In this document: piece by piece, positions 30,058-51,690 of the stretch
Layout of the letters: the number at the start of each line of letters is the position of its first letter
Numbering within the stretch: position 1 is the first letter of the stretch
Source: Trypanosoma brucei
Taxonomy: Eukaryota
Length of the DNA stretch: 64,000 bases
NCBI GenBank assembly: GCA_000002445.1
Contig: AE017150.2
Location: forward strand, 768,001-832,000
Direction of reading: 5' to 3'
Notes under the pieces: model-generated
The model's database searches: none
Told to the model about the DNA's origin: nothing
The model's input: only the letters and a program-made list of their open reading frames with translations
Made by a program: the position numbers and the translations under genes

Positions 30058-32382
30058 TTAGCGGCGCCGCACTTCCACCTCGACTTCCTCATCGATATTG
30101 CTGGCGCGTGCTCTCAACACATCCGCTGTCGGGCTCTCAGCGTTCGAGCGAACTGTCTCACCAAAACCACAGGTTTCCTCATTGTCTCCTCCTTCGCATG
30201 ATTCCAAAGCTTGAGGTATCGCGCAGTTGGTTTCTGAGGACGATTTTCCAGCCACCACCGCCGCCCCGCCTTCTCTTTGCGAGGGAACTCCGACCATTTG
30301 TTCTGCCGCAACAGTGGTCGGTAAAGGCGCCAGCAGCTCCTCCGGCATGCACGGAAGGGGATCCTCGTGAAAGAATTTGTGCTCAAGCGCCTCACGTGCT
30401 GAGAGTCGGTCAATTGGGTTCCATCGCAAAATGCGGTTCAATAGGTCCATTCCACTGGGTGGAAGCGTTGCTGCTCCACTATGGTTTGAACGAGAAAAAA
30501 TTTGCTGCAGTGTATTCTCACGATTGTACCGCTTCAGTGACCGCATCAGACGCGTCACCTCGTGCATTTTGTACAGCCCACTAAACGTTTCCTCCGTCGG
30601 GATCCCAATAACATCGCATATTACGGCGAAGTGACGGCTTTCTTCCTCTGCACGGAACAAAGGTTCCTTGAGAAAAATTTCGGCCATGATGCAACCGAGA
30701 GACCACATGTCCATCTTATACGAATAGTCGGTAATGCCAAAGTGAAGCTCAGGAGCTCGGTACATGAGCGTGACCACATTCGCCGTGAGTTCCTGTCCCT
30801 CGCGATAGTGACGCCCCAGGCCGAAGTCACATAACTTCACCTCACCCGTGGAGCTAATGAGAATGTTGGAGGTTTTAATGTCGCGATGCAATATACGATG
30901 GTCATGCAAAAAGGCGACACCGGTGAACAGCTGCTGCATGACACACTTGACGCGTGAGAGGAAACACCTCGGTGCGTCTGGATGTTTGTTCGCAGAACTA
31001 AGGTGCAGAAGGGCAGCGACGCCCTTGCGATGGTAAATAAAAGCTTTCAGGTCGTACGGACAGTACTCCATAACGAGATACACATCTTTCATTTTATCAG
31101 CTGAGAGCTTTGTCTTGATTTGCGGCGGTTCTTCTTCTTTCTTATCCCCACCCTGATTGCATGACGAGGGAAGGCCGTCGTCGTTGCCCGACGCCGTCGG
31201 TTCTTCATTCGTCTTTTGCACATTATCAGTACGGTGATTGTGACGGCCGACCTCGTTGCTGACCTCTCTGCCAGTTGTACCCGTTGCTGGTTTTACCTCT
31301 TGCTGCTTCGACGCTTTTGAGGAATTGCTCTTTTTATCCAAAAGAACAACTTCCCTGCCGCACACAATATTTGGATGCCGCAATCGAAGCAGCAGGTCAA
31401 ACTCCCGCAGCAGATACGGCGGAAACCCAACCTCTGACTCCTCGAGCCATCGTTGTTTTACCTGCTTGAGAGCAAACTTTCTTCCACGGCCACCTCCACT
31501 CGAAGAAGAACCGTTTGCCTCGGTGGCACGGTACACTACACCATACACCCCGTGCGCAATTTGACCCACGGGAACATATTCATTCACAGAGCGGCACGGA
31601 GGCCGCGTCTTACCAGACACCCGAATGGCCTTCACACTACTCTTTACGTTTTTATGCAGGCTAGTGACATAGCCCTGCAACAGTGAGGGAGCATCCGGTG
31701 CTTCAGAAGCCCAGGTTGTCTTCCCTTCCCTGTCTTTCACGTCACTATGAGTGAAACACCTTGCTTCAAGATAGGGTAGGAAGTAAGAGACTACCGTGCA
31801 TAGTGGTGGATGCGTAAAATGAACAATATTCTTATTAATCCCGTCGCCGCCGCTGCCAACCCCACTCAGTGACTCGCCCTCACCGGAAGAGTTGTTGTGA
31901 TGCTGGTGTTGATACCCTTCCTCTCGCTGCTGTTGCACTTCCTCTTCGTTCTTTGCACTGTCATTGTCTTCCTTCGACCGTACTGGCCTTTCAGTTGCTC
32001 CAAAATCCTCTGAGCGGGCCCTTTTCTGTGCTTGCACGCTGACATTTCCGCGGTGCCGTTGCTGAATGAAGGTTTTAAACAATTCTACGGCAACACTCGT
32101 GGTGAACTGCGCACAAAGTGGGTCCTTCACGGTGTCTCTATACTTCACGACAGCCGTATAAGGGGAAACAAAGGCTGGGGGTAGATTAGCCAGTGGGACG
32201 GAGCAAGTGGACTTAACTTGTGCGGGAGCTGCGGCTGTAACGGTAGTTGACGGAGAGGGCAATGAAGAAGAGGGCGCAAGTGCCGCAGTGGTCGATGATG
32301 ACTGTGGTGTCACAACGGGCTCTTCCGCTGCGGCTTTCCGCGACTTCAAAGCCTCAATTTTCTTTCTTAACAACTCAGCCAT
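30058..32382 (-). CDS. CRK9: CDC2-related protein kinase (CRK family) with a long N-terminal region and large inserts in the kinase domain; possibly CRK9
   Basis: Kinase motifs: GVYGVVYRATE (G-loop), FALKQVK (VAIK-like), HRDIKTSNILIS (catalytic loop), DFGLGR (DFG), YRAPE (APE), plus an LREFDLLLRL-type cyclin-box helix. A roughly 90-aa insert sits between RHPNIVCG and LVMEYCPYDL. The track start (MTANESRR) is a GTG; the first ATG (MAELLRKKIE) is at 32382. The CRK9 assignment is from memory, not verified. Confidence 0.8.
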   Translation of the reverse strand: MAELLRKKIEALKSRKAAAEEPVVTPQSSSTTAALAPSSSLPSPSTTVTAAAPAQVKSTCSVPLANLPPAFVSPYTAVVKYRDTVKDPLCAQFTTSVAVELFKTFIQQRHRGNVSVQAQKRARSEDFGATERPVRSKEDNDSAKNEEEVQQQREEGYQHQHHNNSSGEGESLSGVGSGGDGINKNIVHFTHPPLCTVVSYFLPYLEARCFTHSDVKDREGKTTWASEAPDAPSLLQGYVTSLHKNVKSSVKAIRVSGKTRPPCRSVNEYVPVGQIAHGVYGVVYRATEANGSSSSGGGRGRKFALKQVKQRWLEESEVGFPPYLLREFDLLLRLRHPNIVCGREVVLLDKKSNSSKASKQQEVKPATGTTGREVSNEVGRHNHRTDNVQKTNEEPTASGNDDGLPSSCNQGGDKKEEEPPQIKTKLSADKMKDVYLVMEYCPYDLKAFIYHRKGVAALLHLSSANKHPDAPRCFLSRVKCVMQQLFTGVAFLHDHRILHRDIKTSNILISSTGEVKLCDFGLGRHYREGQELTANVVTLMYRAPELHFGITDYSYKMDMWSLGCIMAEIFLKEPLFRAEEESRHFAVICDVIGIPTEETFSGLYKMHEVTRLMRSLKRYNRENTLQQIFSRSNHSGAATLPPSGMDLLNRILRWNPIDRLSAREALEHKFFHEDPLPCMPEELLAPLPTTVAAEQMVGVPSQREGGAAVVAGKSSSETNCAIPQALESCEGGDNEETCGFGETVRSNAESPTADVLRARASNIDEEVEVEVRRR

Positions 32383-33492
32383 ACTGGACGAGTTCGTAGT
32401 GAAGGCACAACCCGACCAGACAAGTTGTTGGATCGTCGACGGAGTCCTTTTGTGATCTTTATTTAAAACTCTTCCTCTCCTCCTCCTCCTCTTATTGCCG
32501 TTTCTGCTAACTCTTCTGCTTTCGTTCGCAGTCACTCGTCCCCTCTCCCCTCCCCTCTACGAACTCCACAAGACAGCTAAGTAGGAAAATACACGTTAAA
32601 CAACAATAACAAAGAAAAAGGACGCACGGTAATATAACAATAATAAAAGTAACAGTCATGCCAGCTACAATATTAACACCGATAACTAATTACAGAGACT
32701 GAAGTAGTGTTACCGTTCGACAGCATTGCCATCAACAATAAACAACATTACTGGACAGGGGAAAGAGATATGCACCAGGAAACTATACCGTTGACGTACA
32801 AGTGCATGCATGTATATATATATACATTTCTATATGTTCAATCGTACTGTGCAAACACATACAAACCCAGAGGCATAAATTGGGGGAAAATAAACGAAAA
32901 ATGACAAAGACGGCACACTCATTTGATGCGTTGACCGTTCAGCCATCAATCAATTGCATAGAGAAATTCTACAAAACGTGCACAAGCGTAATCAGTTAGC
33001 CTCCGAAGGTGGCATGCAGTAAAGGGGGATGTGTCAACAATCTAAAAAAATTAAATTTGAATGCACGTGGTAAGGAACAAGCCACGAAAGTCATTTCACC
33101 AGAACCCGCGATGCAAAACCAGATAGATCAATAGTAAATTGCAGGAAAACATGAAATTGACAGAATTCAACAGCAGAGAAAGAACACAAGTCATGTACTC
33201 CATACATCTGCTTGGCATACAGCAGACACGAAAGTGCATTGCGCAAAACAACGTTGGATGCCACTAGTGATTTTAACTCCTATTCCATCTTACCTTGCCC
33301 CCCATACTCAGCGCCTCTCAGACATAACTTGGTATCACTTTTCGTTTTCGCTTTCTCATTTTTTTTTCTTTTGGTTCCGTATCACACGCACCTAGGCACA
33401 GAGAAGGCTGAGACCTTACCTTCAAGTAATTTGCTCACATCTTCTTGGCTGTGCACCGCATTGTTCCCCCCTCATTAACAGGAAGATATCTT

Positions 33493-36400
33493 TCAAATCT
33501 CCGTTCGCCGCTTGTAGTCGAAGAGCTTATCCGCTAACGCTGCCACCGGATCCTCGGGACGCAACCGCACCACCTCCGCCATGAGTGGAGTCAAACTGGG
33601 AAGTACATAGCGCATCAAATATAACTCCGACGGAAGATCTTCCAAACCAGCTATTTCTGTAAACATCTCCTTTGCTTCAAAGTATCGCAGTACACAGCGC
33701 TCCTCTTCTACAAGCGCCTTCTCTCTAGAGCTGTCGATGCGAAGGAAGGTCTTGAAACCTCGCTTCAGATGGGAAAGCGCGCCAGATTCGCGCTCTAGAC
33801 TTCGATGCAAACTCCTCTCACTTTTCGTTTCCTCCATTATTGATTCAATCACTTCACCGCAAGTGGATAATCCAATGTTGTTGAGGACCCTTTCGCGGAG
33901 AACGTTGCAGTATTCAACAAAACCATCTTCTATTACAACCTGTCCACCCCCTTCTTCGCAATCCGTCTGAACCGCGCTTTCGGGGGTAAACATGGGAGCG
34001 AATACAATAGATGCGGAACGAGGAGGTCTCTCCCCACCGATCGGCTCCTCTCCATCCCAACCACCTCCAGCTGGAGCATCTTCCCCCTCCTCCGGTTTCT
34101 CCACAACTACGGTTTGATACCAGGAAAGAAGCGACTCAGTTGGTGGGGCATCCAAACGATAATTCGTAAGAAAATGCGTCAACTCTTCATGGGGATCCTT
34201 GTGGTCACCACCTTCAGCTATATCCTGCTTCAGCTCAGACACCTCCGCCTCCGCAATATCCCGGCTGGCCTGAATGAAAATGAAGCAGTCCGGGAAAAGA
34301 GCATCATTCGTCGGGGCAAGCGCATCATCTGATTGGAGAAAGGACTTTCCATCCATGGCGTTCAGCATTTCGCGCCGCCGTCCGTCATCCAACTCCTCAA
34401 GGGATGGTAGTGGGAACGCAAAATCACATGGCTTCGGTGGCTGTGCCCGTTCCGCACTGTTTCGGTACAACTTGGGTCGCTGTTGCTCCTTCTGCTCGGG
34501 GGTATAAGCGAGAAACACGAGTCGAGCCTGGCGAACAGTTCGTGGGAAGTTTTCGAGGATGTAACCCTGGTTCTTGCAGTCAGCTTGGCGTAACCTCCAG
34601 CGAACCATTACAGCGAGTGCTTCGTCAAAGTAGCGAATGGTGGGTGGAGGATCTGGGGATGTGTTAACCGCTGTCTTGCTCTTCGACTTTCGCCGACCCC
34701 TGCGATTCACTTCCACTTCCTCTTCCTCTTCCTCTTCTTCTTCTTCCTCATCAGATTTGGGGATTTGAGGGAACTCACCATTCAAGAGACGCAGGTTCAG
34801 CAACTTCGTGCAAAAGCGGTACTCCTCCCTCAGGGTAGCAATCTCAAATCGCTCCTGCTCATCCACTTGTTGTGCCAGTTGCCGCGCCTTCGTATCTGCG
34901 TTTGAGTCAGTTTCACTTTCCTCCTCGTCTTCCTCCTCCTCATCCTGCCCGTTCAGTAGCTGATGCTCTGGAATTATGTTTTCATCACCGTCGAGCTTAG
35001 GGGAAGGAGAAACAAGTCCTCCACCAGGTATACCTTGACCCTCTTCCCCTTCTTCATCGTCCAACTGTGTCGCTGCACCCTCCTCACTCTCTTCCTCTTC
35101 AAAATCTTCTTCCTCTTCCTCCTCATTTTCTTCTTCTTCCTCTTCTTCTTCGCCTTCCTCGTCATCATCATCATCCTCACCATTACCTCCCCTAGCGGCT
35201 TCCCTTTTGGCTCGGAGTCTCTCCTTCCGCTCCAGTAGCCGCCGCTGACGTTCGCGGCGGATCCGTTCCTCACGTGCAGCCTGTCTACGTGCCCGGCGCC
35301 GCAATAATATGGTCACCATTTGCTCCCTTACCTTCGCCACATGGGCCTCGAATGCAATTATTATGTCCTCGATTGTAAGATGAACAACATCAAATAAATT
35401 CGCCAATATGCGGGAAATCTCTGGTACCCTACCAAATGGGGGACCGGCGATAACAAGACGCATGGGGCAAAGTAAGCGTTCCGATTTGAACTCCTGCACA
35501 ACCTTGTCCACGTTGGCGACAAAACCACCGAGTGAAACCCAATCACTTTCCCCAAGCAGTTGTAAAGCAGCCCCAGACTCACAACGAACATTCAGGGCGC
35601 TGAACCAGTTGCCCAAGCCATGCGGCTCGTCAATGTACAGCCGTATGTCTGCCATCGCTATTTCCGGCGCCGCTACTTTGTTATCATATTCTTCGACGTT
35701 TCCCTTCACGAGGAGACCAATCTTATCCTTTTCCCTCACCTGCTGATCTAGAGACCGCAACCTATTGTATTCGGTAACTAAATCCCTCTCGAACTCCTTT
35801 TGTGAGAGCTCCATCTTTAAATATATCATTTTTAGTTCTATACCCTCCACAGCGCATTCGTGAGAGTTCAGTTCCTCTTTTTCCCGGTTGATCTTCTCCT
35901 CACCATCCGTGCAGCGCTTCGCATTCATAATGGACTTATACATTGAACGCTGTTTCGCAGCCTCTTCCAGTTCCCTTTTTCTCTTCAGGGAGATCGCCTT
36001 CTCTCGTGCAAGAGTGTCTAACTCCTCCATGTAGTTTTTGATACTTTCGTTAATCGACTCCTCTCTTCGTTTGAGTTCCTCCGACGTTTTTCGCTCCTCA
36101 ATCTCGTCAAGCACCTGCTTGTCGCGGTCGATGACGGGCTCTGTCACCTCAATTTCACCCCCAATGTAGGCCCGTATACCGTCAAGAATCTCCTTTTGGG
36201 TGTTATTTCCCTGATCGACGACAAACATGTAACGATCTTCCAGCGTGTCATAGGAAGAGCCAACGAGAAAAATGATACGTGAAAGATCCTTTACATGGAC
36301 GGTGGGAACGTAATTAGACCCGTCGCCATATTGAGTAATCGGCTGATGCCGCCACGCCGATAAGAAATGATCACGAAGCAAATCCTCACCGGCGCCATAG

Positions 36401-37257
36401 GGAAGTCCAGCCCAAAGCACATATGTGTGGAGGGTTTCAGAGTTTGCTTGCTTTACGGCGTGCTCCAGCGCCCGCCATCCGTGGTAGCGTGTGTCAGGGT
36501 ACCGGCGGCGATACTCCTCATCGCTCCAAACTTTCACTTCTAACTGCTCTTCCTCCTCTTCTTCTTCCTCCTCTTCCTCAGTCTCATCACCGTCTTCAGT
36601 GGACTGCTCCCTGTTGGCACGCTCCTGCTCCCGCTGGAGGCGCGCAGCTTCACGCGCGGCACGGCGCTCTGCTCTCCTATTTTCCAACTCGCGCATATCT
36701 GTTTGTGCCCATGTGAAAACATTCGAAACGAGTACGAATGTCTTTTCTACATTGTAATGTGTGCCTTTTAATATTTTAATCGCGCACTCCGCTTCAAAAG
36801 CATTTTCCTCGAGAACGGCAATGATTATGTCGTAGGTCAGCAACTGTGAGCGGAACTCCTCATCATTGATCTCACCGTGTCGCGGCACTACGGCGTTCAG
36901 GTACGGCCTCATATCATTAACATAGTGATGCACTGACTCTTTACCAGCAGCGCTGTCTGCGCCAGATGCGACGGTGGCATCGGGTGGGCACCCATTGAGT
37001 AGCCTAACGGTTGGGACCACTTCATTAATGCCGGTCGAGTTTGTTTCCTGAAATTGTACCTCGGTAGTGCCGCATAACCCAGAGCTCTGGCTCCGTGTTG
37101 CTCCCAGCTCCTCCATCTTGGGCGGCGTTGGTGCTTCTGTTGTGGATTGATGATGGTAAAACGTACCGTCGACAAGGTACTCCTTCGCATCATAAAATTG
37201 ACGGCACACATGCCTTCCAACAAAAGAGTCTACATTGAGCACGAGAACACGCTTCAT
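33493..37257 (-). CDS. Adenylate kinase 7 (AK7)-like protein: N-terminal NAD(P)-binding-like region, acidic low-complexity tracts, AK-fold domain with a degenerate P-loop
   Basis: AK signature NQGYILENFPRTVRQARLVF resembles G-F-[IL]-[IL]-D-G-F-P-R-T-x-x-Q-A. Upstream LLCPMRLVIAGPPFGRVPEISRILANLFDVVHL resembles the AK P-loop, but GPPFGRVPE lacks the G-K-[ST] lysine. N-terminal MKRVLVLNVDSFVGRHV resembles the Rossmann-like start of AK7. Poly-E/D tracts present. The track start is a GTG; the first ATG is at 37257. Confidence 0.55.
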   Translation of the reverse strand: MKRVLVLNVDSFVGRHVCRQFYDAKEYLVDGTFYHHQSTTEAPTPPKMEELGATRSQSSGLCGTTEVQFQETNSTGINEVVPTVRLLNGCPPDATVASGADSAAGKESVHHYVNDMRPYLNAVVPRHGEINDEEFRSQLLTYDIIIAVLEENAFEAECAIKILKGTHYNVEKTFVLVSNVFTWAQTDMRELENRRAERRAAREAARLQREQERANREQSTEDGDETEEEEEEEEEEEQLEVKVWSDEEYRRRYPDTRYHGWRALEHAVKQANSETLHTYVLWAGLPYGAGEDLLRDHFLSAWRHQPITQYGDGSNYVPTVHVKDLSRIIFLVGSSYDTLEDRYMFVVDQGNNTQKEILDGIRAYIGGEIEVTEPVIDRDKQVLDEIEERKTSEELKRREESINESIKNYMEELDTLAREKAISLKRKRELEEAAKQRSMYKSIMNAKRCTDGEEKINREKEELNSHECAVEGIELKMIYLKMELSQKEFERDLVTEYNRLRSLDQQVREKDKIGLLVKGNVEEYDNKVAAPEIAMADIRLYIDEPHGLGNWFSALNVRCESGAALQLLGESDWVSLGGFVANVDKVVQEFKSERLLCPMRLVIAGPPFGRVPEISRILANLFDVVHLTIEDIIIAFEAHVAKVREQMVTILLRRRARRQAAREERIRRERQRRLLERKERLRAKREAARGGNGEDDDDDEEGEEEEEEEENEEEEEEDFEEEESEEGAATQLDDEEGEEGQGIPGGGLVSPSPKLDGDENIIPEHQLLNGQDEEEEDEEESETDSNADTKARQLAQQVDEQERFEIATLREEYRFCTKLLNLRLLNGEFPQIPKSDEEEEEEEEEEEVEVNRRGRRKSKSKTAVNTSPDPPPTIRYFDEALAVMVRWRLRQADCKNQGYILENFPRTVRQARLVFLAYTPEQKEQQRPKLYRNSAERAQPPKPCDFAFPLPSLEELDDGRRREMLNAMDGKSFLQSDDALAPTNDALFPDCFIFIQASRDIAEAEVSELKQDIAEGGDHKDPHEELTHFLTNYRLDAPPTESLLSWYQTVVVEKPEEGEDAPAGGGWDGEEPIGGERPPRSASIVFAPMFTPESAVQTDCEEGGGQVVIEDGFVEYCNVLRERVLNNIGLSTCGEVIESIMEETKSERSLHRSLERESGALSHLKRGFKTFLRIDSSREKALVEEERCVLRYFEAKEMFTEIAGLEDLPSELYLMRYVLPSLTPLMAEVVRLRPEDPVAALADKLFDYKRRTEI

Positions 37258-38088: not shown

Positions 38089-38802
38089 CTAGGAATGACC
38101 ACCCGACACATTGTCACCTGTTGCAAAGGCACGTGGCGCGCTTGGTGCCGCAGTGTCATCCGGAAGCGCCGGACCGCCTTGCCGCCGTCTACGCGCAGCG
38201 CTCTCCTCTTGCGCTTCAACGGCAGTTTCTAAAAGTTGCTTGCGGCGACGCCGCGCCTCTCCAGCAGCCGCCATTGACGTGTCGACGCTTCCTGCACCCT
38301 CACGGCCATCCGGACTGGCACACAAACCAGAACCACCTTCAGTGGCCTGCGCGGCATCTAACATGTCTGACGTGAGCTGCACAAGCAACATATCAGGGTT
38401 CCACGGTACGTCCTCGTCGTCGAGTTGTTGTGAGAGACACGCAGTGAGTGCGGACATGTCGTAGTCCTCATGAACCGCCTGAAGAAAATCGTTCCATATG
38501 TTTGATATGTCAAGGGCCGCCAATTTGGGCAAAGTTGCTGCATAACCGATGGGAGCCTCGGCGACCAGCTCAACGAGGCGTTTGACTTCCTCCTTTTGCC
38601 TGCTCTCAGCCTGGTGACGATTTTCCTCATCAACACCGTCGTCGAGGCTGCGAAGGTTGCTTTTGGCAACGACCTCATCTTTTGGCCTTGGCCGGTGGTG
38701 CTTTGTGCCAGTCGCGAAACCCATCAGCGATTTGAGGGACGTCTCCGATTCCCCCGCCTTCTTCATCATGTTGGCACGCCGACCAAACTTCGGAGATTGC
38801 AT
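38089..38802 (-). CDS. Hypothetical protein (237 aa), charged, Ala/Arg-rich C-terminus
   Basis: Minus-strand ORF, ATG at 38802, no domain recognised. Confidence 0.45.
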   Translation of the reverse strand: MQSPKFGRRANMMKKAGESETSLKSLMGFATGTKHHRPRPKDEVVAKSNLRSLDDGVDEENRHQAESRQKEEVKRLVELVAEAPIGYAATLPKLAALDISNIWNDFLQAVHEDYDMSALTACLSQQLDDEDVPWNPDMLLVQLTSDMLDAAQATEGGSGLCASPDGREGAGSVDTSMAAAGEARRRRKQLLETAVEAQEESAARRRRQGGPALPDDTAAPSAPRAFATGDNVSGGHS

Positions 38803-40635: not shown

Positions 40636-43353
40636 TCACTTACGCCTCTTCGCACGTTGTTTGTCGCGCCGCAACTCGCCCATCTTCTTGCGATCGAGTG
40701 GACCGTTTTTACGTCGACCTCCATTACCCTTTACCGCCTGCGATCGCATGAGCTTTCGTACGCTGAGGTTATTGGCCTTTTCACGCGTACGCGGATCCAC
40801 CTTTCCGCGCTCAATAAGACCACGAAGCATTCGCTGCGCACGGCGCCGCTTACGTTGAACGGCCTCCATCACCTTTTTACCCGGACGCGCGTTCATTTCG
40901 CGGAAGCGAGCACGCTGTGCCTCAACCTCCTCCGCCGTGACAGGTAGTACAACGCGGCAGTTGCGCTGCTCATCTTTCAAAAACCAATCTGGAAGATCTT
41001 CATCATCGTTGAAGGTGTAGCGGTTGATAGATGCATCAAGAATTTCACGACGGCCACGCGGGTCAAGCATCTTTGTGGCGATAGCAAGAGTGCGGGCACG
41101 TACCTCCGGGTCTGTAAGAGCGACGGGAACCTCCTCAAACTCGGTGTCTTTGCTGTTGCCACTGTTGCCCCTCTGACGGCGCTTCTCAGCATTCTCCTTT
41201 AGTGTCTGTTTTCGCTGCTGCCGTACGAGCTCTTGCGTGGTTAGCTTGCCAATGTCTGGTACAATGGCACGCTTGCGACGTGAATCTACACGACCAACAT
41301 TCACCTCAAGATCGCTCCGGTCGTCACTAAAGCGACCATCAGAGAGGTCAGAAACACTGTTCATGTCATCATCGTCATCATCCACACGGGCATCAAAGCG
41401 CATCTTCTTTCTGGTGGATGTGCTACTACCGGCGGTATCATCCCGAAGGGGGCCTGGCGCGCTCATTTCCACTCGGTCCTCCTCAAGACGTTTACTTTTC
41501 TTGCGTCTGTTGCCACTATCACTTCGTGGCATGGGAAATGTATCCCGGAGAACCTTCTCGATGTTGACGTGGTGACGCAACCACTTACTCTGCTTACCTG
41601 CAGCATCAAGAGTAGTTTGGTGCCTTTCCCTCTTGTGACGTGTGGCATCATCTTCACCTTCGTCTTCCCCTTCACTTTCATCTTCCTCAGCACCAGGCTT
41701 GCTAAGGCCCTCTTCGTACAATGCAACGCGGGCCGAACGTTTAGCGGGGATGTAGTTGCCGTAGTTGTCAACATCCACACCATCTTCCTCACCCTCAACA
41801 AGCTGTATGGAGCGGACGAGTCGGCCACTGCCGTCATACTGCTCATCGTCGCCACCTTCCTTCTCATCGCTTCCCACGTCCCAGTCCTTCTCCAAGTTAA
41901 GATTGGCGTTCATAACAGGATTGAGTGGATCATTAAGTCGCTCATCCGGCTCTTCCCAGTGCTTGTCGAGTATGTTAGCAACGTCTGCCTCATCGACGGC
42001 AGCCAGCTTTCCAACAGTGAATCCCTCATCGTCTTCGCCATCCTCGCTAGAGTCTTCTTCACCAACATCACTTCCCTCAACTCCATCTGCATCGTGCGTA
42101 AAACCATCCGCATCTGTCATGTGCTCTGCGCTGGTATTTGGATCATAGTTGATGAGACCTTTGATCTGTTTGAGTTTTCTGTCAACAATCTTTTTCTGCT
42201 TCTTCTTCATTTCCTTGGACTGCTTCTTGCGTAACTCAAGAAGCTCCCTCGCTATCTTTGCAACGCCCTCCGCACTGTCAAAATCAAATTTATCGTCGTC
42301 CTTCTCTTCTTCTTCGTCTTCCTCCGCGATGTCCCCGGCGTTCGCATCACTCGCGGCGCGTTGCTTAAGTTCCCGGGCCTGCTCCCGCAGCAGTTGTTCA
42401 CGCCAGCGTACAAGTCGTCGCAAATCCGCATCCCCAACCTGCTGTAAGTCCCCACAGAGGTACACCAACTCCTTTTTGGAGTGTTTAGACTTTAAAAAGG
42501 CCTTCTCCTCCGGGGTGGTAAAACGCAGCTCGTGGTGGGAACGAAGGAATGCCTTTGGATCACTGCTACTCATAAACTCTGAAAAGGACGCCACGTGTTG
42601 TTGCACCGTAGCAAACTCCTCGTACCCTGCAGGCACATTAGACCTGGGCACCACAAGAGCCCCGGATGGGGTGAGTATTTTTTCCTCCTCCACATCAGAA
42701 AATACCTTCTGCGGATTAAACATCGCAGGGTCCAATTGCTTGGGGGCCTTGTAACCCGCACAAGTCACGAAAATCTCAGCAGACTCCATACGTGAGGCCA
42801 GTGGCTTTGTGGCCTCCACCTTATCAAACAACTGTTTCATCACCCACATGAGCTTATGGAAATCTTGTGACCGAAACACCTTTGTGACGAACCAACCACC
42901 TGGCCGTAACAGTTTGCTAGCCAACTTCGCGGCGTGTAGAACAAGCGAGTTCTGTTCAAACAGATCTCGCGACCACACACCACCAACATTGGGGGCACCA
43001 TCGTGAATAACGCAGTCCACTGGCTCACGTTTGAGATAAGTCATTATAATTTTCTTCGTTTTTTCCTCAGTAATATCGCCCACAAATGTCTTCACGCCTC
43101 GAATGGGTGCAATGGGTACTAAATCCACACCGACTATCTTTGAACCAACGGGCATATGTTTTGCTGCTACTTGGCACCAGCTACCCGGAGCCGCGCAGAG
43201 ATCAACGAGTACGCGACATTTTGAAAGGAAATCATACTTGCGGTTCAGTTGCACAAGTTTGAAGGCGGAACGCGCACGGAAACCCTGATCCTTGGCGAGG
43301 CGGTAATACGCGTCAAGGCGGGTCTTAGCCTTCTTTTTAGATTTGGTACCCAT
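40636..43353 (-). CDS. SPB1: AdoMet-dependent rRNA 2'-O-methyltransferase Spb1 (FtsJ/RrmJ domain plus Spb1 C-terminal domain)
   Basis: N-terminus MGTKSKKKAKTRLDAYYRLAKDQGFRARSAFKLVQLNRKYDFL...LVDLCAAPGSWCQVA...HDGAPNVGG...FVTKVFRS...KVEATKPLASR is near-identical in pattern to yeast Spb1/FtsJ3. Long acidic/K-rich C-terminus. ATG at 43353. Confidence 0.95.
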   Translation of the reverse strand: MGTKSKKKAKTRLDAYYRLAKDQGFRARSAFKLVQLNRKYDFLSKCRVLVDLCAAPGSWCQVAAKHMPVGSKIVGVDLVPIAPIRGVKTFVGDITEEKTKKIIMTYLKREPVDCVIHDGAPNVGGVWSRDLFEQNSLVLHAAKLASKLLRPGGWFVTKVFRSQDFHKLMWVMKQLFDKVEATKPLASRMESAEIFVTCAGYKAPKQLDPAMFNPQKVFSDVEEEKILTPSGALVVPRSNVPAGYEEFATVQQHVASFSEFMSSSDPKAFLRSHHELRFTTPEEKAFLKSKHSKKELVYLCGDLQQVGDADLRRLVRWREQLLREQARELKQRAASDANAGDIAEEDEEEEKDDDKFDFDSAEGVAKIARELLELRKKQSKEMKKKQKKIVDRKLKQIKGLINYDPNTSAEHMTDADGFTHDADGVEGSDVGEEDSSEDGEDDEGFTVGKLAAVDEADVANILDKHWEEPDERLNDPLNPVMNANLNLEKDWDVGSDEKEGGDDEQYDGSGRLVRSIQLVEGEEDGVDVDNYGNYIPAKRSARVALYEEGLSKPGAEEDESEGEDEGEDDATRHKRERHQTTLDAAGKQSKWLRHHVNIEKVLRDTFPMPRSDSGNRRKKSKRLEEDRVEMSAPGPLRDDTAGSSTSTRKKMRFDARVDDDDDDMNSVSDLSDGRFSDDRSDLEVNVGRVDSRRKRAIVPDIGKLTTQELVRQQRKQTLKENAEKRRQRGNSGNSKDTEFEEVPVALTDPEVRARTLAIATKMLDPRGRREILDASINRYTFNDDEDLPDWFLKDEQRNCRVVLPVTAEEVEAQRARFREMNARPGKKVMEAVQRKRRRAQRMLRGLIERGKVDPRTREKANNLSVRKLMRSQAVKGNGGRRKNGPLDRKKMGELRRDKQRAKRRK

Positions 43354-44050: not shown

Positions 44051-45739
44051 TTACGCAAGCATGCTTGGCGGATGCCCCTTGTAAAACTGCCACGCCTCCG
44101 CGACCAGATTTTCTAACCAGCCTTGACTGCATTTACTCTCGTCGTCAGGAATGTGCTGCAGCTGCAATGATCGCGTGCCTAATGGGTCTTTCAAAAAATT
44201 CAATATCACATCCACCGGTTGTCCAATTACATTGTCGCGTACGCGCGTGAGCAGCACTGCGCAAACATACGCATGGAAATCATGAACAGTCTCACTATTC
44301 AGCACAGCCATGTACTTTTCCCACAGAAGGACCACCAGACGTAGCGGGAGTTCTCGAGCAAGCAAACAGTGTAGCCACTGGAAGCAACAATCCATAAGAG
44401 TAATGCCTTGTGATGTGATGGCATCGAGCACACCGGGGTCCAACACTATAAGAACCCTTTCCATGAGCGCCAAGGTTCTTCGAATGCCCGGTTGACCCTC
44501 CACAAAGTTATCCTGCAACCACGAAAGGAAGAAAGCCCCACAAAGATATGCATCAGCCTCCGCAGTCCTGAGCACCTCCACTGGAAGTCTCTCCATCGCC
44601 TCCCCAAACTTAGCCACGTCATCAGTGTATACAACAGATGGAGATATGCATGCCCGGAAAGTATTTATTCCACTCCCCCTTACACTCTTCTTAACCGTAT
44701 GCTCGTCACCAGCATAACCACCACCACCACCATAACCGCCGTTCCCAACTTTGTCGCCATCGATCTTTATGCGATCATCAGTATGAATATGTTTTCCGCC
44801 ATGTTCATTACGAGGCAGCTGCTCTTCGCACAACACGCGGCCACCATCACAGCAACAGCAGCAAGCGTTGAATTCCACCACGGCTCCCTCCAGAAATACG
44901 GAGAAAAACACTACCATAATGTCATCAATGCCCTGTACGTATCCCACAGCAGGGTAACGCCGGGACCAGAAGAAAAGACAGCGAGCCAACGCAGACACGG
45001 TTTTTGTATGGCGAAAGACAGCTTGCGTGTGTCTTGGAATGTCTGACGCAATCTGCGAGAGGTTTTTGCGATCGTCAGGCGACAAATGCATCTCCATTAA
45101 AGAGCCACCGCCTTGCTGGCTCCAGTCACTCTGCGAGGCACGCCCACGGGGTTGGAGAAAGTCGGTAATTGTTATGGGACAGCACTTGGCCATGACGTAT
45201 TCGTATTCTTCCCGCTTGCGCCGCAGCTCCGTCTGTTGCCGTCCTGCAGAAGCTGGCGCTGGGGGTACGCAGTCGCAAAGCAGGCGCCAAACGGTGGAGC
45301 GGACGGTTCGATCAATAGAGCCACTCCACGCAAGGTCCCGCACTGTCACACGCCCGTCATCGGCTCTACGTACCGCCACATCTCCCAAAGGCGTGTCCAA
45401 CATTGCCCTAACGGCATCTTCATACAAACTACGGGAGGGAGATTCGTCATATTCATTTATATGAGTGCCCCCATCATGACAAGAGGGATGGGTCGACCCG
45501 CTACTACCGCACGTGGATGTTTCATTCGTATTTCTATTAACAATGTACACCGTTCCCCTTTCGACGGCATGGGAGGCGGCGGTACTCGTCACATCCGCGG
45601 AGGGATTAGTTGTACCGATGGCCGAACTACCATTAGCAGGCACGACCACAAAACCGTAAACGCGGTATAATGTTCCGAGTGGTGCCCGCACAGCAGTGCC
45701 GGGACCTTTCGTTACAACCTTTTGTCGACCTGTTAACAT
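44051..45739 (-). CDS. TBC-domain Rab GTPase-activating protein
   Basis: Arginine-finger motif IASDIPRH (IxxDxxR) and glutamine-finger motif GYVQGIDDI (YxQ) at the expected spacing. The track start is a TTG; the first ATG (MLTGRQKVV) is at 45739. Confidence 0.75.
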   Translation of the reverse strand: MLTGRQKVVTKGPGTAVRAPLGTLYRVYGFVVVPANGSSAIGTTNPSADVTSTAASHAVERGTVYIVNRNTNETSTCGSSGSTHPSCHDGGTHINEYDESPSRSLYEDAVRAMLDTPLGDVAVRRADDGRVTVRDLAWSGSIDRTVRSTVWRLLCDCVPPAPASAGRQQTELRRKREEYEYVMAKCCPITITDFLQPRGRASQSDWSQQGGGSLMEMHLSPDDRKNLSQIASDIPRHTQAVFRHTKTVSALARCLFFWSRRYPAVGYVQGIDDIMVVFFSVFLEGAVVEFNACCCCCDGGRVLCEEQLPRNEHGGKHIHTDDRIKIDGDKVGNGGYGGGGGYAGDEHTVKKSVRGSGINTFRACISPSVVYTDDVAKFGEAMERLPVEVLRTAEADAYLCGAFFLSWLQDNFVEGQPGIRRTLALMERVLIVLDPGVLDAITSQGITLMDCCFQWLHCLLARELPLRLVVLLWEKYMAVLNSETVHDFHAYVCAVLLTRVRDNVIGQPVDVILNFLKDPLGTRSLQLQHIPDDESKCSQGWLENLVAEAWQFYKGHPPSMLA

Positions 45740-46222
45740 GCGCTCAAATTGTGCAACAAATGCTTTCCTTTTATCTTGCTTTACAGTCACAGTTTCACCG
45801 TCCCCTCCACTTTGGTTCGCCAAACCTTGATGGAGTTATTTAGCCTGACTCTTGCAACGACACTAGAGGCGAATGAACAAAAACAAATAAATACAGCCTC
45901 CGATAGAAGGTGTACAAATATGCAGATATAGGTAGGTGTGAGGGGCCAATAAAATAAACTGAGCGAAAATGCAGCACCTGAATGAAGCGCCGGACGGTCG
46001 ATAAGTTCGCTAACGGGCCTAAAACACCTTACACCGTTGGCCTACAAGATTTGTAAGCATACCATACCATAATGTAATGTGAATATGCATACATGCATTG
46101 AGGTCGCAGAAATTTCAAGGGTTGTGGTAATAGGAAAAAAAAGAAGAGTAAACAAGGAGCATAGGAAGTGAAGAGTGGAGGCAAATCGTCAAGCAAACGT
46201 ATACAAATACATGTACTCAAAA

Positions 46223-50239: not shown

Positions 50240-51690
50240 TTCATTCCCTTGTAAATGTGACCAAGCCTAAAATACCCACAAGTGCATTTCCTTCCGTAAC
50301 CACTTATTGTCTCCCGTTGCTTAAGAAGTGGTACCAACAATGCGTGACCACTCATGTTCCACATCACCATATTGAATATCTGTAATCGCCTTTAGAACCC
50401 GATGTGTGAGCGAAGCCCCTGGAGCCGGGCATGGAACATTAAGCAACTCTCCCTTATATGACAGTGCTTCCACAGGGGACACAATAGCAGCCGTCCCACA
50501 GCCAAAGCACTCAAGCACACGTTTCTCCCGTAGCGCAGCAGTGAGCTCGTGAATGGTAAAGGAGCGTTCAGATACACGTGCCTCACCCCACTGCCGCACC
50601 AGCGACAAAATGGAATCTCGCGTCACACCGGGGAGGATCGTGCCATCCAACGGCGCAGTTACAAGTTCCACTTCATTTGAATTTGCAGAAGGACGCCAAA
50701 GACACATGAAATTCATTGCTCCCACTTCTTGCACTTCTTCTCCAGCGCCCAGCCATAACACTTGCTGAAAGCCAAGCTCAGACGCTTCCCGCTGCACCAG
50801 CATAGGCGCAGCGTAGTTCGCGCCAAGCTTCACGTTGCCGACCCCACCAGGCCAGGCACGGCGCCGCTCCTCCTCCACATGAAGTCTCACAGGTTTCATC
50901 CCAGAGGGATAATATGGTCCAACAGGTGAAGCAATCACGAATAACTTCGCTGCAGAACCTGCCACTGCGGAGAGTGTGCTTCCAGTCCCAATTACAGTGG
51001 GTCTCAAGTATAGAGAGTAACCACGCTCACTTGGGACGTAATCACGTTCCACTTTCACAAACTCCTCAATTAACTTTTGCAGTTCGTCAGGGTCAAATCC
51101 AGGGAGACATAAGCGTCGTGTGCTGTCCAGTAGCCGTCGACAGTTACGATCCGGGCGGAAGAGTCGGATATTGCCGTGACTGTCGCGATACGCCTTCATG
51201 CCCTCGAAGCATTGAATGGCATAATGTAAGCAAGCAGTCTGCGGCGGCAATGAAAGGTTCTCAAAGGGAACAATACGTGGTTTGCCCCATTTCCCATTCC
51301 CATCTGCATCAATTACCAACATATGTGGGCTGAAAAGAGTACCAAACATAACTCCCTGCAGTGAAGGAAGTGGCGGTGGATTTGCCACGCGTTGAACAGT
51401 GAGGTCCTTGGCGAGGAAAGTCATAATAAACTGTTGTATTTGCCTGTGGTTCCCAAATATCGAAGTTTCTTTTATCAATAAGTTGTTTATCACTGTCGTC
51501 TGTGTTAGGAATGATAATGATAATAGTAAAGTGAGCAAAATAATGAAAGGTTATCATACAACGGTGCACACAAAACAACATGGGTGACGAACCACTGCAT
51601 AAAAACAAAACGACTTAACAAGGTAGTACTAACAAAATAAAAGAAGGACGCCACTAGCAAAAACGTACGCACAGATACTATACACTGCAG
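50240..51690. repeat. Tandem duplication unit, copy 1 (~1.45 kb: BCAT CDS plus ~90 bp 3' flank and ~270 bp 5' flank)
   Basis: Near-identical to 52079..53529; the period is 1839 bp. Identity starts at ttcattcccttgtaaatgtga and ends at cagatactatacactgcagt. The ~390 bp between the copies is unique. Confidence 0.95.
50321..51424 (-). CDS. BCAT: Branched-chain amino acid aminotransferase (PLP fold-type IV), copy 1
   Basis: QCFEGMKAYRDSHGNIRLFRPDRNCRRLLDSTRRLCLP and the surrounding sequence are classic BCAT. 367 aa from the first ATG (MTFLAKDLTVQRV). The track start at 51538 is a TTG. Confidence 0.88.
   Translation of the reverse strand: MTFLAKDLTVQRVANPPPLPSLQGVMFGTLFSPHMLVIDADGNGKWGKPRIVPFENLSLPPQTACLHYAIQCFEGMKAYRDSHGNIRLFRPDRNCRRLLDSTRRLCLPGFDPDELQKLIEEFVKVERDYVPSERGYSLYLRPTVIGTGSTLSAVAGSAAKLFVIASPVGPYYPSGMKPVRLHVEEERRRAWPGGVGNVKLGANYAAPMLVQREASELGFQQVLWLGAGEEVQEVGAMNFMCLWRPSANSNEVELVTAPLDGTILPGVTRDSILSLVRQWGEARVSERSFTIHELTAALREKRVLECFGCGTAAIVSPVEALSYKGELLNVPCPAPGASLTHRVLKAITDIQYGDVEHEWSRIVGTTS

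What the first reader, a model, noticed from the sequence alone, without database searches (positions are those of the whole stretch)
33493..37257. AK7-like protein whose adenylate-kinase P-loop has lost the Walker lysine
This 1254-aa protein has the NMP-binding AK signature NQGYILENFPRTVRQARLVF (34500-34580). At about 35395-35480 it has a P-loop-like segment, LVIAGPPFGRVPEIS, in which the canonical G-x-x-G-K-[ST] lysine is replaced. Its N-terminus resembles the Rossmann-like start of ciliary adenylate kinase 7, and it carries long poly-Glu/Asp tracts. A catalytically dead AK scaffold in a flagellated parasite would be a plausible axonemal structural or regulatory component rather than an enzyme.
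Basis: partly seen in the sequence, partly recalled or inferred. Interest (0 to 1): 0.55.

Follow-up and report, generated by a model that had tools for sequence, protein, structure and literature searches.

The report
Catalytically dead AK7 homologue in trypanosomes
This Trypanosoma brucei gene encodes a relative of the ciliary radial-spoke protein adenylate kinase 7 that keeps the protein's shape and its docking domain but has lost the residues needed for kinase chemistry, so it most likely serves as a structural part of the flagellum rather than as an enzyme.

Summary
The minus-strand ORF 33493-37257 encodes a 1254-aa protein identical to T. brucei TREU927 XP_951642.1, annotated only as "Dpy-30 motif containing protein". 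It matches solved mammalian AK7 in five collinear stretches (E 1e-29). It has the AK7 architecture: an SDR/Rossmann-like N-domain, an adenylate-kinase fold and a C-terminal DPY30 domain. Both AlphaFold models find radial-spoke-3 AK7 chains as best structural matches.

The segment GPPFGRVPE aligns column for column with the AK7 Walker A motif GPPAVGKSS. The lysine is replaced by Val611 and the Ser/Thr by Pro612. No other Walker A motif exists in the protein. Asp84, Arg119 and Arg167 (E. coli numbering) are also replaced.

All trypanosomatid orthologues examined have a degenerate loop, with different residues in each lineage. The free-living bodonid relatives keep every catalytic residue. Trypanosomatids also carry a second AK7-like paralogue with an intact P-loop.

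Loss of the Walker lysine recurs elsewhere in the family: 16 of 144 representatives, including fish ak7b and choanoflagellates.

The best reading is a pseudoenzyme kept as a scaffold, probably in the radial spoke 3 head. That location is inferred by homology, not shown. I rate it a modestly interesting new variant of a known kind.

The parts
33493..37257 (-). Complete CDS (1254 codons plus stop) of the AK7-like 'Dpy-30 motif containing protein'
   Evidence: ORF list and translation. Exact match to XP_951642.1 / Q586Q4 of T. brucei TREU927.
36142..37257 (-). N-terminal extended-SDR / Rossmann-like domain (residues 1-372, with a disordered loop at about 38-106). The Gly-rich NAD(P) motif is degenerate (LNVDSFVG).
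   Evidence: The AF2 model has a beta-alpha-beta core with pLDDT above 90. Foldseek top 4 hits are AK7 chains (E 1e-14), followed by NAD-dependent epimerases/dehydratases (E 1e-9). Weak Pfam Epimerase hit. phmmer matches to AK7 residues 94-292.
35707..36126 (-). Insertion of about 140 residues predicted as a long antiparallel coiled-coil hairpin (helices 378-444 and 451-517). Seen only in T. brucei, T. congolense and T. vivax.
   Evidence: AF2 secondary structure. Alignment A1 columns 500-650 are occupied by the window protein and T. vivax P0002. T. congolense P0003 has the equivalent stretch by reading of its sequence.
33958..35544 (-). Adenylate-kinase-fold domain (residues about 572-1100), interrupted by large insertions
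   Evidence: The AF2 model has core pLDDT above 90, with b1 599-604, b3 898-902, b4 991-996 and b5 1083-1088. Foldseek: the 4 significant hits (E 3e-9 to 1e-5) are AK7 chains; ranks 5-50 are all adenylate kinases but are not significant (E 0.25-2.1). The Pfam ADK hit covers only residues 878-912 and is below the gathering score.
35419..35445 (-). Degenerate Walker A / P-loop GPPFGRVPE (residues 605-613). Arg610 is in place of the second Gly, Val611 in place of Lys, Pro612 in place of Ser/Thr.
   Evidence: Ungapped alignment to AK7 GPPAVGKSS. Family alignments. Coordinates.
34648..35373 (-). Expanded insertion between the P-loop helix/b2 and the NMP-binding-like segment (residues 629-870). It contains a 62-residue Arg/Glu-rich helix (629-690) followed by acidic, largely disordered tracts. 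It has 82 D/E and 37 K/R.
   Evidence: AF2 shows helix 629-691 at high pLDDT and residues 695-754 with pLDDT below 50. Composition. Mammalian AK7 has a short poly-Glu insert at the same position.
34513..34572 (-). NMP-binding-like signature NQGYILENFPRTVRQARLVF (residues 896-915). D84 is replaced by E902 and G85 by N903. R88 is kept (R906) and Q92 is kept (Q910).
   Evidence: Matches to canonical adenylate kinases at residues 877-912. This is the most conserved part of the AK-like domain: 86% identity to T. vivax and 60% to a bodonid.
34156..34299 (-). b4 and the LID-flanking helices. The R119-equivalent is Glu1005 (DIAEAEV) and the K166/R167-equivalents are Glu1024/Glu1025 (HEELTHF).
   Evidence: Column comparison with bodonid, mammalian and paralogue-2 sequences. 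Coordinates. The E. coli numbering comes from my own recollection of the Adk sequence. For residues 2-95 it is anchored by the Bodo domain versus 1ake match.
33511..33624 (-). C-terminal DPY30 dimerisation/docking domain (residues 1212-1249)
   Evidence: Pfam PF05186, E 1.2e-5, 25.4 bits against a cutoff of 22. Aligned to the AK7 C-terminus and to DPY30 chains. 53-72% identical among trypanosomatids.

Best explanation
The gene encodes the trypanosomatid orthologue of the bodonid and metazoan AK7-type protein, with an SDR-like domain, an adenylate-kinase fold and a DPY30 domain. Its kinase active site has been dismantled, so it is a pseudoenzyme.

Shown here:
- AK7 family membership.
- Retention of the AK fold.
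- Replacement of the Walker Lys and Ser/Thr, and of the Asp84, Arg119 and Arg167 equivalents.
- Conservation of this degenerate state throughout trypanosomatids, against canonical motifs in bodonids.
- Strong conservation of the N-domain, the NMP-like segment and the DPY30 domain.

Inferred by homology to mammalian and Tetrahymena AK7:
- The DPY30 domain pairs with another DPY30/RIIa-type domain and docks on an amphipathic helix of CFAP91.
- This fixes the protein in the head of radial spoke 3.
- There the SDR-like and dead AK domains act as building blocks needed for head assembly and for contact with the central pair, not for ATP regeneration.

The enlarged Arg/Glu helix and poly-acidic insertions, and the coiled-coil hairpin specific to African trypanosomes, would be lineage-specific surface elaborations of that head.
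For: Family and architecture:
- phmmer to AK7 in 9fqr and 9d2f gives E 1e-29 in 5 collinear stretches.
- The Dpy-30 Pfam hit is above its cutoff.
- AF2 models have mean pLDDT 76, with the core above 90. Their top Foldseek hits are AK7 chains of the mouse RS3 and bovine sperm structures.

Dead active site:
- GPPFGRVPE aligns with GPPAVGKSS.
- There is no other Walker A motif.
- E902, E1005 and E1025 replace D84, R119 and R167.
- The Pfam ADK score is 15.2 against a cutoff of 26.8. Bodonid orthologues carry PF00406 hits. A Bodo domain with the inserts removed matches E. coli Adk residues 2-95 at E 2.6e-10.

Relaxed constraint on the loop only:
- The loop differs between close relatives: GRVP, SKVG, SGSG, SGAE, SGVE.
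- In contrast, segment 871-920 is 86%, 62%, 54% and 60% identical to T. vivax, P0004, L. mexicana and a bodonid. The N-domain and DPY30 domain are 50-80% identical among trypanosomatids.

Structural role of AK7:
- Mouse AK7-/- cilia lose the RS3 head and neck, and about 10 proteins depend on AK7 (bioRxiv 10.1101/2025.05.19.654877).
- Two AK7 copies are anchored through DPY30 domains to CFAP91 (PMC11779644).
- Tetrahymena Ak7A/B depend on CFAP91 (PMC12399478).
Against: - No localisation, proteomic or knock-down data for the T. brucei protein could be retrieved.
- No kinetoplastid chain matching it exists in the PDB copy searched, so the RS3 assignment is by homology only.
- Chlamydomonas FAP75 has the same three-domain layout and is assigned to the central-pair C2 microtubule by proteomics (PMC12680740). 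AK7-like architecture therefore does not by itself prove an RS3 location.
- Loss of activity is predicted from sequence, not measured. R88 (R906) and Q92 (Q910) are retained in T. brucei, and a basic residue (R610) sits one position before the missing lysine.
Confidence: 0.62

Rival explanations
1. It is still an active, or at least ATP-binding, kinase with a non-canonical P-loop. For example, Arg610 (Lys in T. congolense) one position upstream could take over the role of the Walker lysine.
For: T. brucei has R610 and T. congolense has K at the same column (GPPMSKVGE). R906 (R88) and Q910 (Q92) are retained, and the NMP-like segment is the best-conserved part of the domain. One relative, P0005, keeps the lysine (GPPFSGKEV).
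Against: The loop residues are not conserved even among African trypanosomes (GRVP, SKVG, SGSG). T. vivax and all Leishmaniinae have no basic residue there. Pro612 replaces the Ser/Thr that ligates Mg. D84, R119 and R167 equivalents are acidic or neutral. P0005 keeps Lys but has Glu at the Ser/Thr position and Glu at R88.
Confidence: 0.07
2. It is a dead AK7-like scaffold of the central apparatus, like FAP75 on C2, or of another flagellar structure, rather than of the radial spoke 3 head.
For: Chlamydomonas FAP75 is described as having an N-terminal NADP-binding domain, a central ADK domain and a C-terminal DPY30 domain. It is AK7-like and assigned to C2 by proteomics (PMC12680740). Tetrahymena Ak7A may also sit in structures other than RS3 (PMC12399478). 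Trypanosomatids have two AK7-like paralogues, which need not share one location.
Against: The best sequence and structure matches are the RS3 AK7 chains. The T. brucei central-apparatus cryo-EM preprint does not mention adenylate kinase, DPY30, FAP75 or AK7. AK7 is reported as conserved in organisms with a full-length third spoke. From my own recollection of Imhof et al. 2019 (cited), Trypanosoma has three full-length spokes. [quoted passage not shown]
Confidence: 0.22
3. It is a decaying or non-functional gene, and the motif loss reflects a pseudogene-like drift.
For: Large low-complexity acidic tracts and fast divergence: only 48-56% identity between African trypanosome species.
Against: An intact 1254-codon ORF is identical in TREU927 and T. 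equiperdum records and about 99% identical in T. b. gambiense. Full-length orthologues are present across Trypanosoma, Leishmania, Leptomonas, Lotmaria and Porcisia, with 50-86% identity in the N-domain, NMP-like segment and DPY30 domain. The fold is confidently predicted.
Confidence: 0.02

Closest known systems
Mammalian adenylate kinase 7 (AK7; PDB 9d2f chains D/G, 9fqr chains Xc/Xd), radial spoke 3 head subunit
   Same: The domain order is the same: degenerate SDR/Rossmann-like N-domain, AK fold with a Glu-rich insert after the P-loop helix, and a C-terminal DPY30 domain. There are five collinear sequence matches (E 1e-29). It is the best structural match for both halves. In mouse the protein has a demonstrated structural role (RS3 head lost in AK7-/-).
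   Different: Mammalian AK7 keeps GPPAVGKSS and LDGYPKT and is treated as a catalytic domain. The T. brucei protein has GPPFGRVPE and LENFPRT, with E1005 and E1025 in place of the arginines. It is 1254 aa against about 720 aa, because of a roughly 240-residue charged insertion, a roughly 140-residue coiled-coil hairpin and other inserts.
Bodonid orthologues (Bodo saltans P0028, 'Adenylate kinase'; Trypanoplasma borreli P0025)
   Same: These are the closest non-trypanosomatid relatives. In the NJ tree their clade is sister to the trypanosomatid type-1 clade. They share the N-terminal MKR(V/L)..D(S/T) start, the ANSETLHT, RWRLxQxDC and NQGY motifs, and the DPY30 tail.
   Different: All catalytic motifs are canonical (GPPLAGKS, LDGFPKT, LxxR, RRL). 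They carry PF00406 hits and are about 870-950 aa.
Trypanosomatid AK7-like paralogue 2 (L. major P0046, Leptomonas pyrrhocoris P0038, Phytomonas P0067, T. cruzi marinkellei P0068)
   Same: It has the same three-domain architecture and a Dpy-30 Pfam hit. It also matches solved AK7 (E 1.7e-37).
   Different: It forms a separate clade. It keeps GPP..GK[ST], D84 and the R119 equivalent, but has T/P/H/E/Q at the R88 position and no R167 equivalent. Whether T. brucei itself has this paralogue was not established.
Other AK7-family proteins lacking the Walker lysine (teleost 'adenylate kinase 7b', choanoflagellate, Incisomonas and dinoflagellate members)
   Same: These are independent replacements of the Walker Lys within an otherwise AK7-like protein: 16 of 144 50%-identity representatives.
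   Different: They are short (about 640-790 aa), lack the trypanosomatid insertions, belong to unrelated lineages, and were not examined further.
Chlamydomonas FAP75
   Same: Described as having an N-terminal NADP-binding domain, a central ADK domain and a C-terminal DPY30 domain, with weak homology to AK7 (PMC12680740).
   Different: It is assigned to the central-pair C2 microtubule. Its Walker A motif is reported as conserved in that paper's alignment of Chlamydomonas ADKs.

Membership tests
AK7 family (SDR-like + AK + DPY30 ciliary proteins) | Collinear sequence similarity to AK7 over all three domains | tested here: met
   phmmer against the PDB: AK7 in 9fqr_Xc at E 1.1e-29 and in 9d2f_D at E 1.4e-28, with 4-5 collinear stretches spanning residues 124-1249.
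AK7 family (SDR-like + AK + DPY30 ciliary proteins) | Three-domain architecture confirmed at fold level | tested here: met
   Two AF2 models. In both Foldseek PDB searches the top 4 hits are AK7 chains. Pfam Dpy-30 is above its gathering score.
AK7 family (SDR-like + AK + DPY30 ciliary proteins) | Location in the RS3 head, docked through DPY30 on CFAP91 | not testable with these tools
   Known for bovine and mouse AK7 and inferred for Tetrahymena. No T. brucei localisation or structure was retrievable.
Adenylate kinase (enzyme; Pfam PF00406 ADK) | Walker A P-loop G-x4-G-K-[ST] | tested here: not met
   GPPFGRVPE sits at the homologous position. No such motif occurs anywhere in the protein.
Adenylate kinase (enzyme; Pfam PF00406 ADK) | Catalytic Asp84 and Arg88/119/167 equivalents (E. 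coli numbering) | tested here: not met
   E902 (D84), E1005 (R119) and E1025 (R167). Only R906 (R88) is retained in T. brucei, and it is lost in T. vivax and most Leishmaniinae.
Adenylate kinase (enzyme; Pfam PF00406 ADK) | Pfam gathering score | tested here: not met
   15.2 bits against a cutoff of 26.8, covering only residues 878-912.
Adenylate kinase (enzyme; Pfam PF00406 ADK) | AK fold (five-stranded parallel sheet, P-loop-helix, NMP-binding and LID-flanking helices) | tested here: met
   The AF2 strand and helix order fits AK, with core pLDDT above 90. Foldseek hits 5-50 are all adenylate kinases, but at weak E-values because of the insertions.
Adenylate kinase (enzyme; Pfam PF00406 ADK) | Phosphotransferase activity | not testable with these tools
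   Needs an enzyme assay.
DPY30 / RIIa-like dimerisation-docking domain (PF05186) | Pfam gathering score and C-terminal position | tested here: met
   E 1.2e-5, 25.4 bits against a cutoff of 22, residues 1212-1249. Aligned with DPY30 chains and the AK7 C-terminus.
Extended SDR (NAD-dependent epimerase/dehydratase, PF01370) | Rossmann fold | tested here: met
   Foldseek hits to UDP-sugar epimerases/dehydratases at E about 1e-9, TM (target-normalised) about 0.6.
Extended SDR (NAD-dependent epimerase/dehydratase, PF01370) | Gly-rich dinucleotide-binding motif (T)GxxGxxG after strand 1 | tested here: not met
   The sequence reads VLVLNVDSFVGRHV, in which only the last Gly is present. The Pfam Epimerase hit is 13.9 bits against a cutoff of 20.9.
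Chlamydomonas FAP75-type central-pair protein | Orthology to FAP75 / C2 location | not tested
   Only the description in PMC12680740 was available. No FAP75 sequence or chain was accessible.

The most novel reading that the evidence does not exclude
Trypanosomatids may have divided the two AK7 positions of the radial spoke 3 head between two paralogues. One paralogue keeps a P-loop. The other is this gene, which has become a pure scaffold. It retains the AMP-site Thr/Gln and the highly conserved NMP-like segment, so it might still bind a nucleotide and act as an energy-state sensor at the spoke to central-pair interface.

Walker-lysine loss recurs in other lineages, and at least one of them (teleost ak7b) is named as a second AK7 paralogue. 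This would suggest a general rule: only one of the two RS3 AK7 positions needs catalysis.
Probability: 0.15. Interest if true: 0.55.

Novelty: new variant of a known kind. Interest (0 to 1): 0.35.

Why it matters
In mammals AK7 is both a putative ATP-regenerating enzyme and an essential building block of radial spoke 3. Its loss causes primary ciliary dyskinesia in mice and male infertility in humans. It is unclear which of the two roles matters.

A lineage whose AK7 orthologue has been kept for hundreds of millions of years with a dismantled active site is a natural separation-of-function case. It argues that the structural role alone is enough to maintain the protein.

It also corrects an uninformative annotation ("Dpy-30 motif containing protein") in a genetically tractable flagellate. 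In that organism, knockout plus cryo-ET could test the RS3 assignment directly. The finding extends known biology and does not overturn it.

Tried and rejected
- **Literature look-ups.** Searches for the accession numbers and for gene IDs adjacent to CRK9 (Tb927.2.4490-4530) found only CRK9 papers. The gene's TriTrypDB ID was not established.
- **TrypTag localisation.** I searched the supplement of PMC9981465 by candidate gene IDs and by the tagging-primer homology sequences taken from the window. Nothing was found, and the relevant file is truncated in the library.
- **T. brucei central-apparatus preprint.** It has no mention of AK, DPY30 or FAP75.
- **A wasted search.** The last literature search was badly targeted and returned nothing useful.
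- **Naming the unnamed orthologues.** P0004, P0005, P0014, P0015 and P0054-P0063 could not be assigned to organisms through cluster membership or encoding contigs; they exist only as unnamed sequences (Logan assemblies, ENA, JGI/IMG, EukProt). It is therefore unknown which organism keeps the lysine in P0005. It is also unknown whether T. brucei itself has paralogue 2. T. cruzi marinkellei does.
- **P-loop geometry.** It could not be inspected because model coordinates are not exposed.
- **Pseudogene reading.** Rejected on conservation.
- **A second P-loop elsewhere.** Rejected by motif scan.

Full report
**What is there**

The window is a stretch of Trypanosoma brucei brucei TREU927 chromosome 2. 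The protein read from the first ATG at 37257 down to the stop at 33493 (minus strand, 1254 aa) is an exact match to XP_951642.1 / AAQ15910.1 / UniProt Q586Q4. The sources name it only "hypothetical protein, conserved" or "Dpy-30 motif containing protein".

All substantial ORFs in the window lie on the minus strand, as expected for a trypanosome polycistronic unit. The downstream neighbour is a large CDK-like kinase, probably CRK9 Tb927.2.4510.

LVIAGPPFGRVPEIS is residues 601-615 (window 35413-35457). NQGYILENFPRTVRQARLVF is residues 896-915 (window 34513-34572). There are six Glu/Asp runs of six or more residues.

**Family assignment**

A phmmer search of the PDB sequences returns adenylate kinase 7 from the bovine sperm doublet (9fqr) and the mouse RS3 structure (9d2f) at E 1e-29 and 1e-28. 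The match runs in five collinear stretches:
- the N-terminal domain (residues 124-361),
- the region around the P-loop (572-635),
- the NMP-binding-like segment (836-932),
- the C-terminal DPY30 domain (1160-1249).

Pfam finds Dpy-30 above its gathering score. It finds only a sub-threshold fragment of the ADK model (15.2 bits against a cutoff of 26.8) and a weak Epimerase hit.

AlphaFold2 models of residues 540-1254 and 1-560 were built on alignments of 34 and 33 homologues. Both have mean pLDDT of about 76, with cores above 90. Foldseek against the PDB puts the four AK7 chains first for both models:
- For the C-terminal half, the four AK7 hits (E 3e-9 to 1e-5) are the only significant ones. 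Ranks 5-50 are all adenylate kinases but are not significant (E 0.25-2.1).
- For the N-terminal half, the AK7 hits (E 1e-14) are followed by NAD-dependent sugar epimerases/dehydratases (E about 1e-9).

The protein is therefore a member of the AK7 family by sequence, architecture and predicted fold.

**The P-loop and the rest of the active site**

In the ungapped phmmer alignment, GPPFGRVPE (605-613) lies exactly on AK7 GPPAVGKSS. The substitutions are:
- Arg610 replaces the second glycine.
- Val611 replaces the Walker lysine.
- Pro612 replaces the Mg-ligating Ser/Thr.

- The Asp of LDGFP(K/R)T is Glu902, and the following Gly is Asn903.
- The Arg of the L-x-x-R helix after strand 4 is Glu1005 (E. 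coli R119 equivalent).
- The basic pair of the RRL helix is Glu1024/Glu1025 (E. coli K166/R167 equivalent).

Arg906 (R88) and Gln910 (Q92) remain. The E. coli numbering rests on my recollection of the Adk sequence. It is anchored for residues 2-95 by the match of the Bodo saltans domain to 1ake (E 2.6e-10).

**Is the loss conserved?**

Yes. Every trypanosomatid orthologue recovered has a degenerate loop, and the replacing residues differ between lineages:

| Orthologue | Loop |
|---|---|
| T. congolense | GPPMSKVGE |
| T. vivax | GPPLSGSGE |
| P0004 (unnamed) | GPPFSGAET |
| P0005 (unnamed) | GPPFSGKEV |
| Leishmania, Leptomonas, Lotmaria, Porcisia | GPPLSG(V/A)(E/D/G)x |

Only P0005 keeps the lysine, and it has Glu at both the Ser/Thr and the R88 positions.

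In contrast, the bodonids keep GPPxxGK(S/T), LDGFPK(T/N), the L-x-x-R arginine and RRL. This applies to Bodo saltans, Trypanoplasma borreli and several unnamed relatives. They also carry Pfam ADK hits. A neighbour-joining tree places the trypanosomatid clade as sister to the bodonid clade. Inactivation therefore occurred on the trypanosomatid stem or soon after.

The loop then drifted while the rest stayed constrained:
- Residues 871-920 are 86% identical to T. vivax, 54-62% identical to L. mexicana and P0004, and 60% identical to a bodonid.
- The N-domain blocks are 50-80% identical among trypanosomatids.
- The DPY30 domain is 53-72% identical among trypanosomatids.

This is the pattern of a pseudoenzyme retained for a non-catalytic function, not of a decaying gene.

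**Lineage-specific additions**

The T. brucei protein is about 530 residues longer than mammalian AK7. The main additions are:
- A roughly 240-residue insertion between the P-loop helix/strand 2 and the NMP-like segment. It contains a confidently predicted 62-residue Arg/Glu helix followed by disordered acidic tracts, with 82 D/E and 37 K/R. Mammalian AK7 has a short poly-Glu insert at the same place.
- A roughly 140-residue antiparallel coiled-coil hairpin between the N-domain and the AK domain. It is seen only in T. brucei, T. congolense and T. vivax.
- A disordered loop in the N-domain.

The Gly-rich dinucleotide-binding motif of the SDR-like domain is degenerate (LNVDSFVG), as it is in mammalian AK7.

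**Wider family context**

Trypanosomatids have a second AK7-like paralogue. It was recovered from Leishmania spp., Leptomonas, Novymonas, Porcisia, Phytomonas sp. EM1 and T. cruzi marinkellei. It forms a separate clade. It keeps GPPxxGK(S/T), the Asp and the R119 equivalent, but has T/P/H/E/Q at the R88 position. I could not establish whether T. brucei itself has it.

An exhaustive phmmer search with a paralogue-2 sequence found 1283 family members in the 50%-identity library. Of the 150 best, 144 are not trypanosomatid type-1 proteins, and 16 of those also lack the Walker lysine. They include:
- a teleost "adenylate kinase 7b" (Nothobranchius),
- two choanoflagellates,
- the stramenopile Incisomonas marina.

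A dinoflagellate protein (Effrenium voratum) also lacks the lysine (GPPGCGAER). It came from the earlier homologue search and is not among those 150.

Loss of catalysis is therefore a recurrent outcome in this family, which lowers the surprise of the present case.

**How it most likely works**

[quoted passage not shown] Each AK7 DPY30 domain pairs with the DPY30 domain of EFCAB5 or AK9 and docks on CFAP91.

Mouse AK7-/- cilia lose the RS3 head and neck, and about ten other proteins depend on AK7 (bioRxiv 10.1101/2025.05.19.654877). Tetrahymena Ak7A/B depend on CFAP91 (PMC12399478). AK7 therefore has a demonstrated structural role that does not obviously require catalysis.

The simplest explanation is that the trypanosomatid protein keeps that role. 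It would be anchored through its well-conserved DPY30 domain, and its SDR-like and dead AK domains would serve as head building blocks. The charged insertions would be added surface. This part is inference by homology.

The main rival is a different axonemal address. Chlamydomonas FAP75 has the same layout and is assigned to the central-pair C2 microtubule (PMC12680740). The T. brucei central-apparatus preprint mentions no such protein, which is only weak evidence against.

No localisation or structural data for the trypanosome protein could be retrieved.

**Verdict**

The gene is an AK7-family member that fails the defining features of an adenylate kinase enzyme. It is a new variant (pseudoenzyme) of a known kind. 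It is conserved across trypanosomatids and is one instance of a recurrent trend in the family. Interest is moderate to low. It is useful as a natural separation-of-function case for AK7 and as an annotation improvement, but it is not a surprise to a cilia specialist.

Noticed in passing
window 38089-38802 (-): The 237-aa ORF immediately upstream of the AK7-like gene has a Pfam IFT43 (intraflagellar transport protein 43) hit just under the gathering score: 26.4 bits against 27, E 9e-6. It is possibly the T. brucei IFT43 orthologue, next to another flagellar gene.
   Followed up: no
window 30058-32535 (-): An 825-aa protein kinase immediately downstream. The Pfam Pkinase match covers only residues 478-722 and starts at profile position 66. 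A Ser/Glu-rich stretch appears to interrupt the kinase domain (my reading of the translation). It is probably CRK9, Tb927.2.4510 (plus my own recollection).
   Followed up: partly
window 50321-51538 (-) and 52160-53377 (-): Two tandem 405-aa genes, both class IV aminotransferases (PF01063, E about 1e-30). This looks like a tandem duplication.
   Followed up: no
window 1-64000: 20 of the 24 ORFs of at least 200 aa are on the minus strand. The 4 plus-strand ORFs each overlap a longer minus-strand ORF. GC skew is negative in every 2-kb bin. This is consistent with a single polycistronic transcription unit. Other genes identified include an Spb1/FtsJ rRNA methyltransferase (40636-43353), a RabGAP-TBC protein (44051-45823) and a zf-MIZ SUMO-ligase-like protein (16976-18109).
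   Followed up: partly
related proteins P0038, P0046, P0067, P0068, P0054-P0063: There is a second AK7-like paralogue in trypanosomatids (Leishmania, Leptomonas, Phytomonas, T. cruzi marinkellei). It has an intact GPPxxGK(S/T) but T/P/H/E/Q at the E. coli R88 position and no R167 equivalent, so its own catalytic competence is uncertain.
   Followed up: partly
related proteins P0040, P0076, P0117, P0134, P0181 and 12 others: The Walker lysine has been lost repeatedly in the AK7 family outside kinetoplastids: 16 of 144 representatives. Named examples are teleost 'adenylate kinase 7b' (Nothobranchius, GPPAVGTTT), the choanoflagellates Salpingoeca infusionum and Diaphanoeca grandis, and Incisomonas marina. 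The dinoflagellate Effrenium voratum (P0040, GPPGCGAER) also lacks it but is not among those 144.
   Followed up: partly
related protein P0035 / P0039 (unnamed protist): This AK7-like protein keeps a canonical GxxGxxG (GVSGYIG) in the SDR-like N-domain and has a Pfam Epimerase hit. Its AK P-loop is degenerate (GNDDFAKT) and it has GFPET. That is the opposite pattern of domain decay from mammalian AK7.
   Followed up: no
window 35707-36126 (-), residues 378-517: A coiled-coil hairpin insertion of about 140 residues is present in T. brucei, T. vivax and T. congolense. It is absent from all other orthologues in the alignment.
   Followed up: partly
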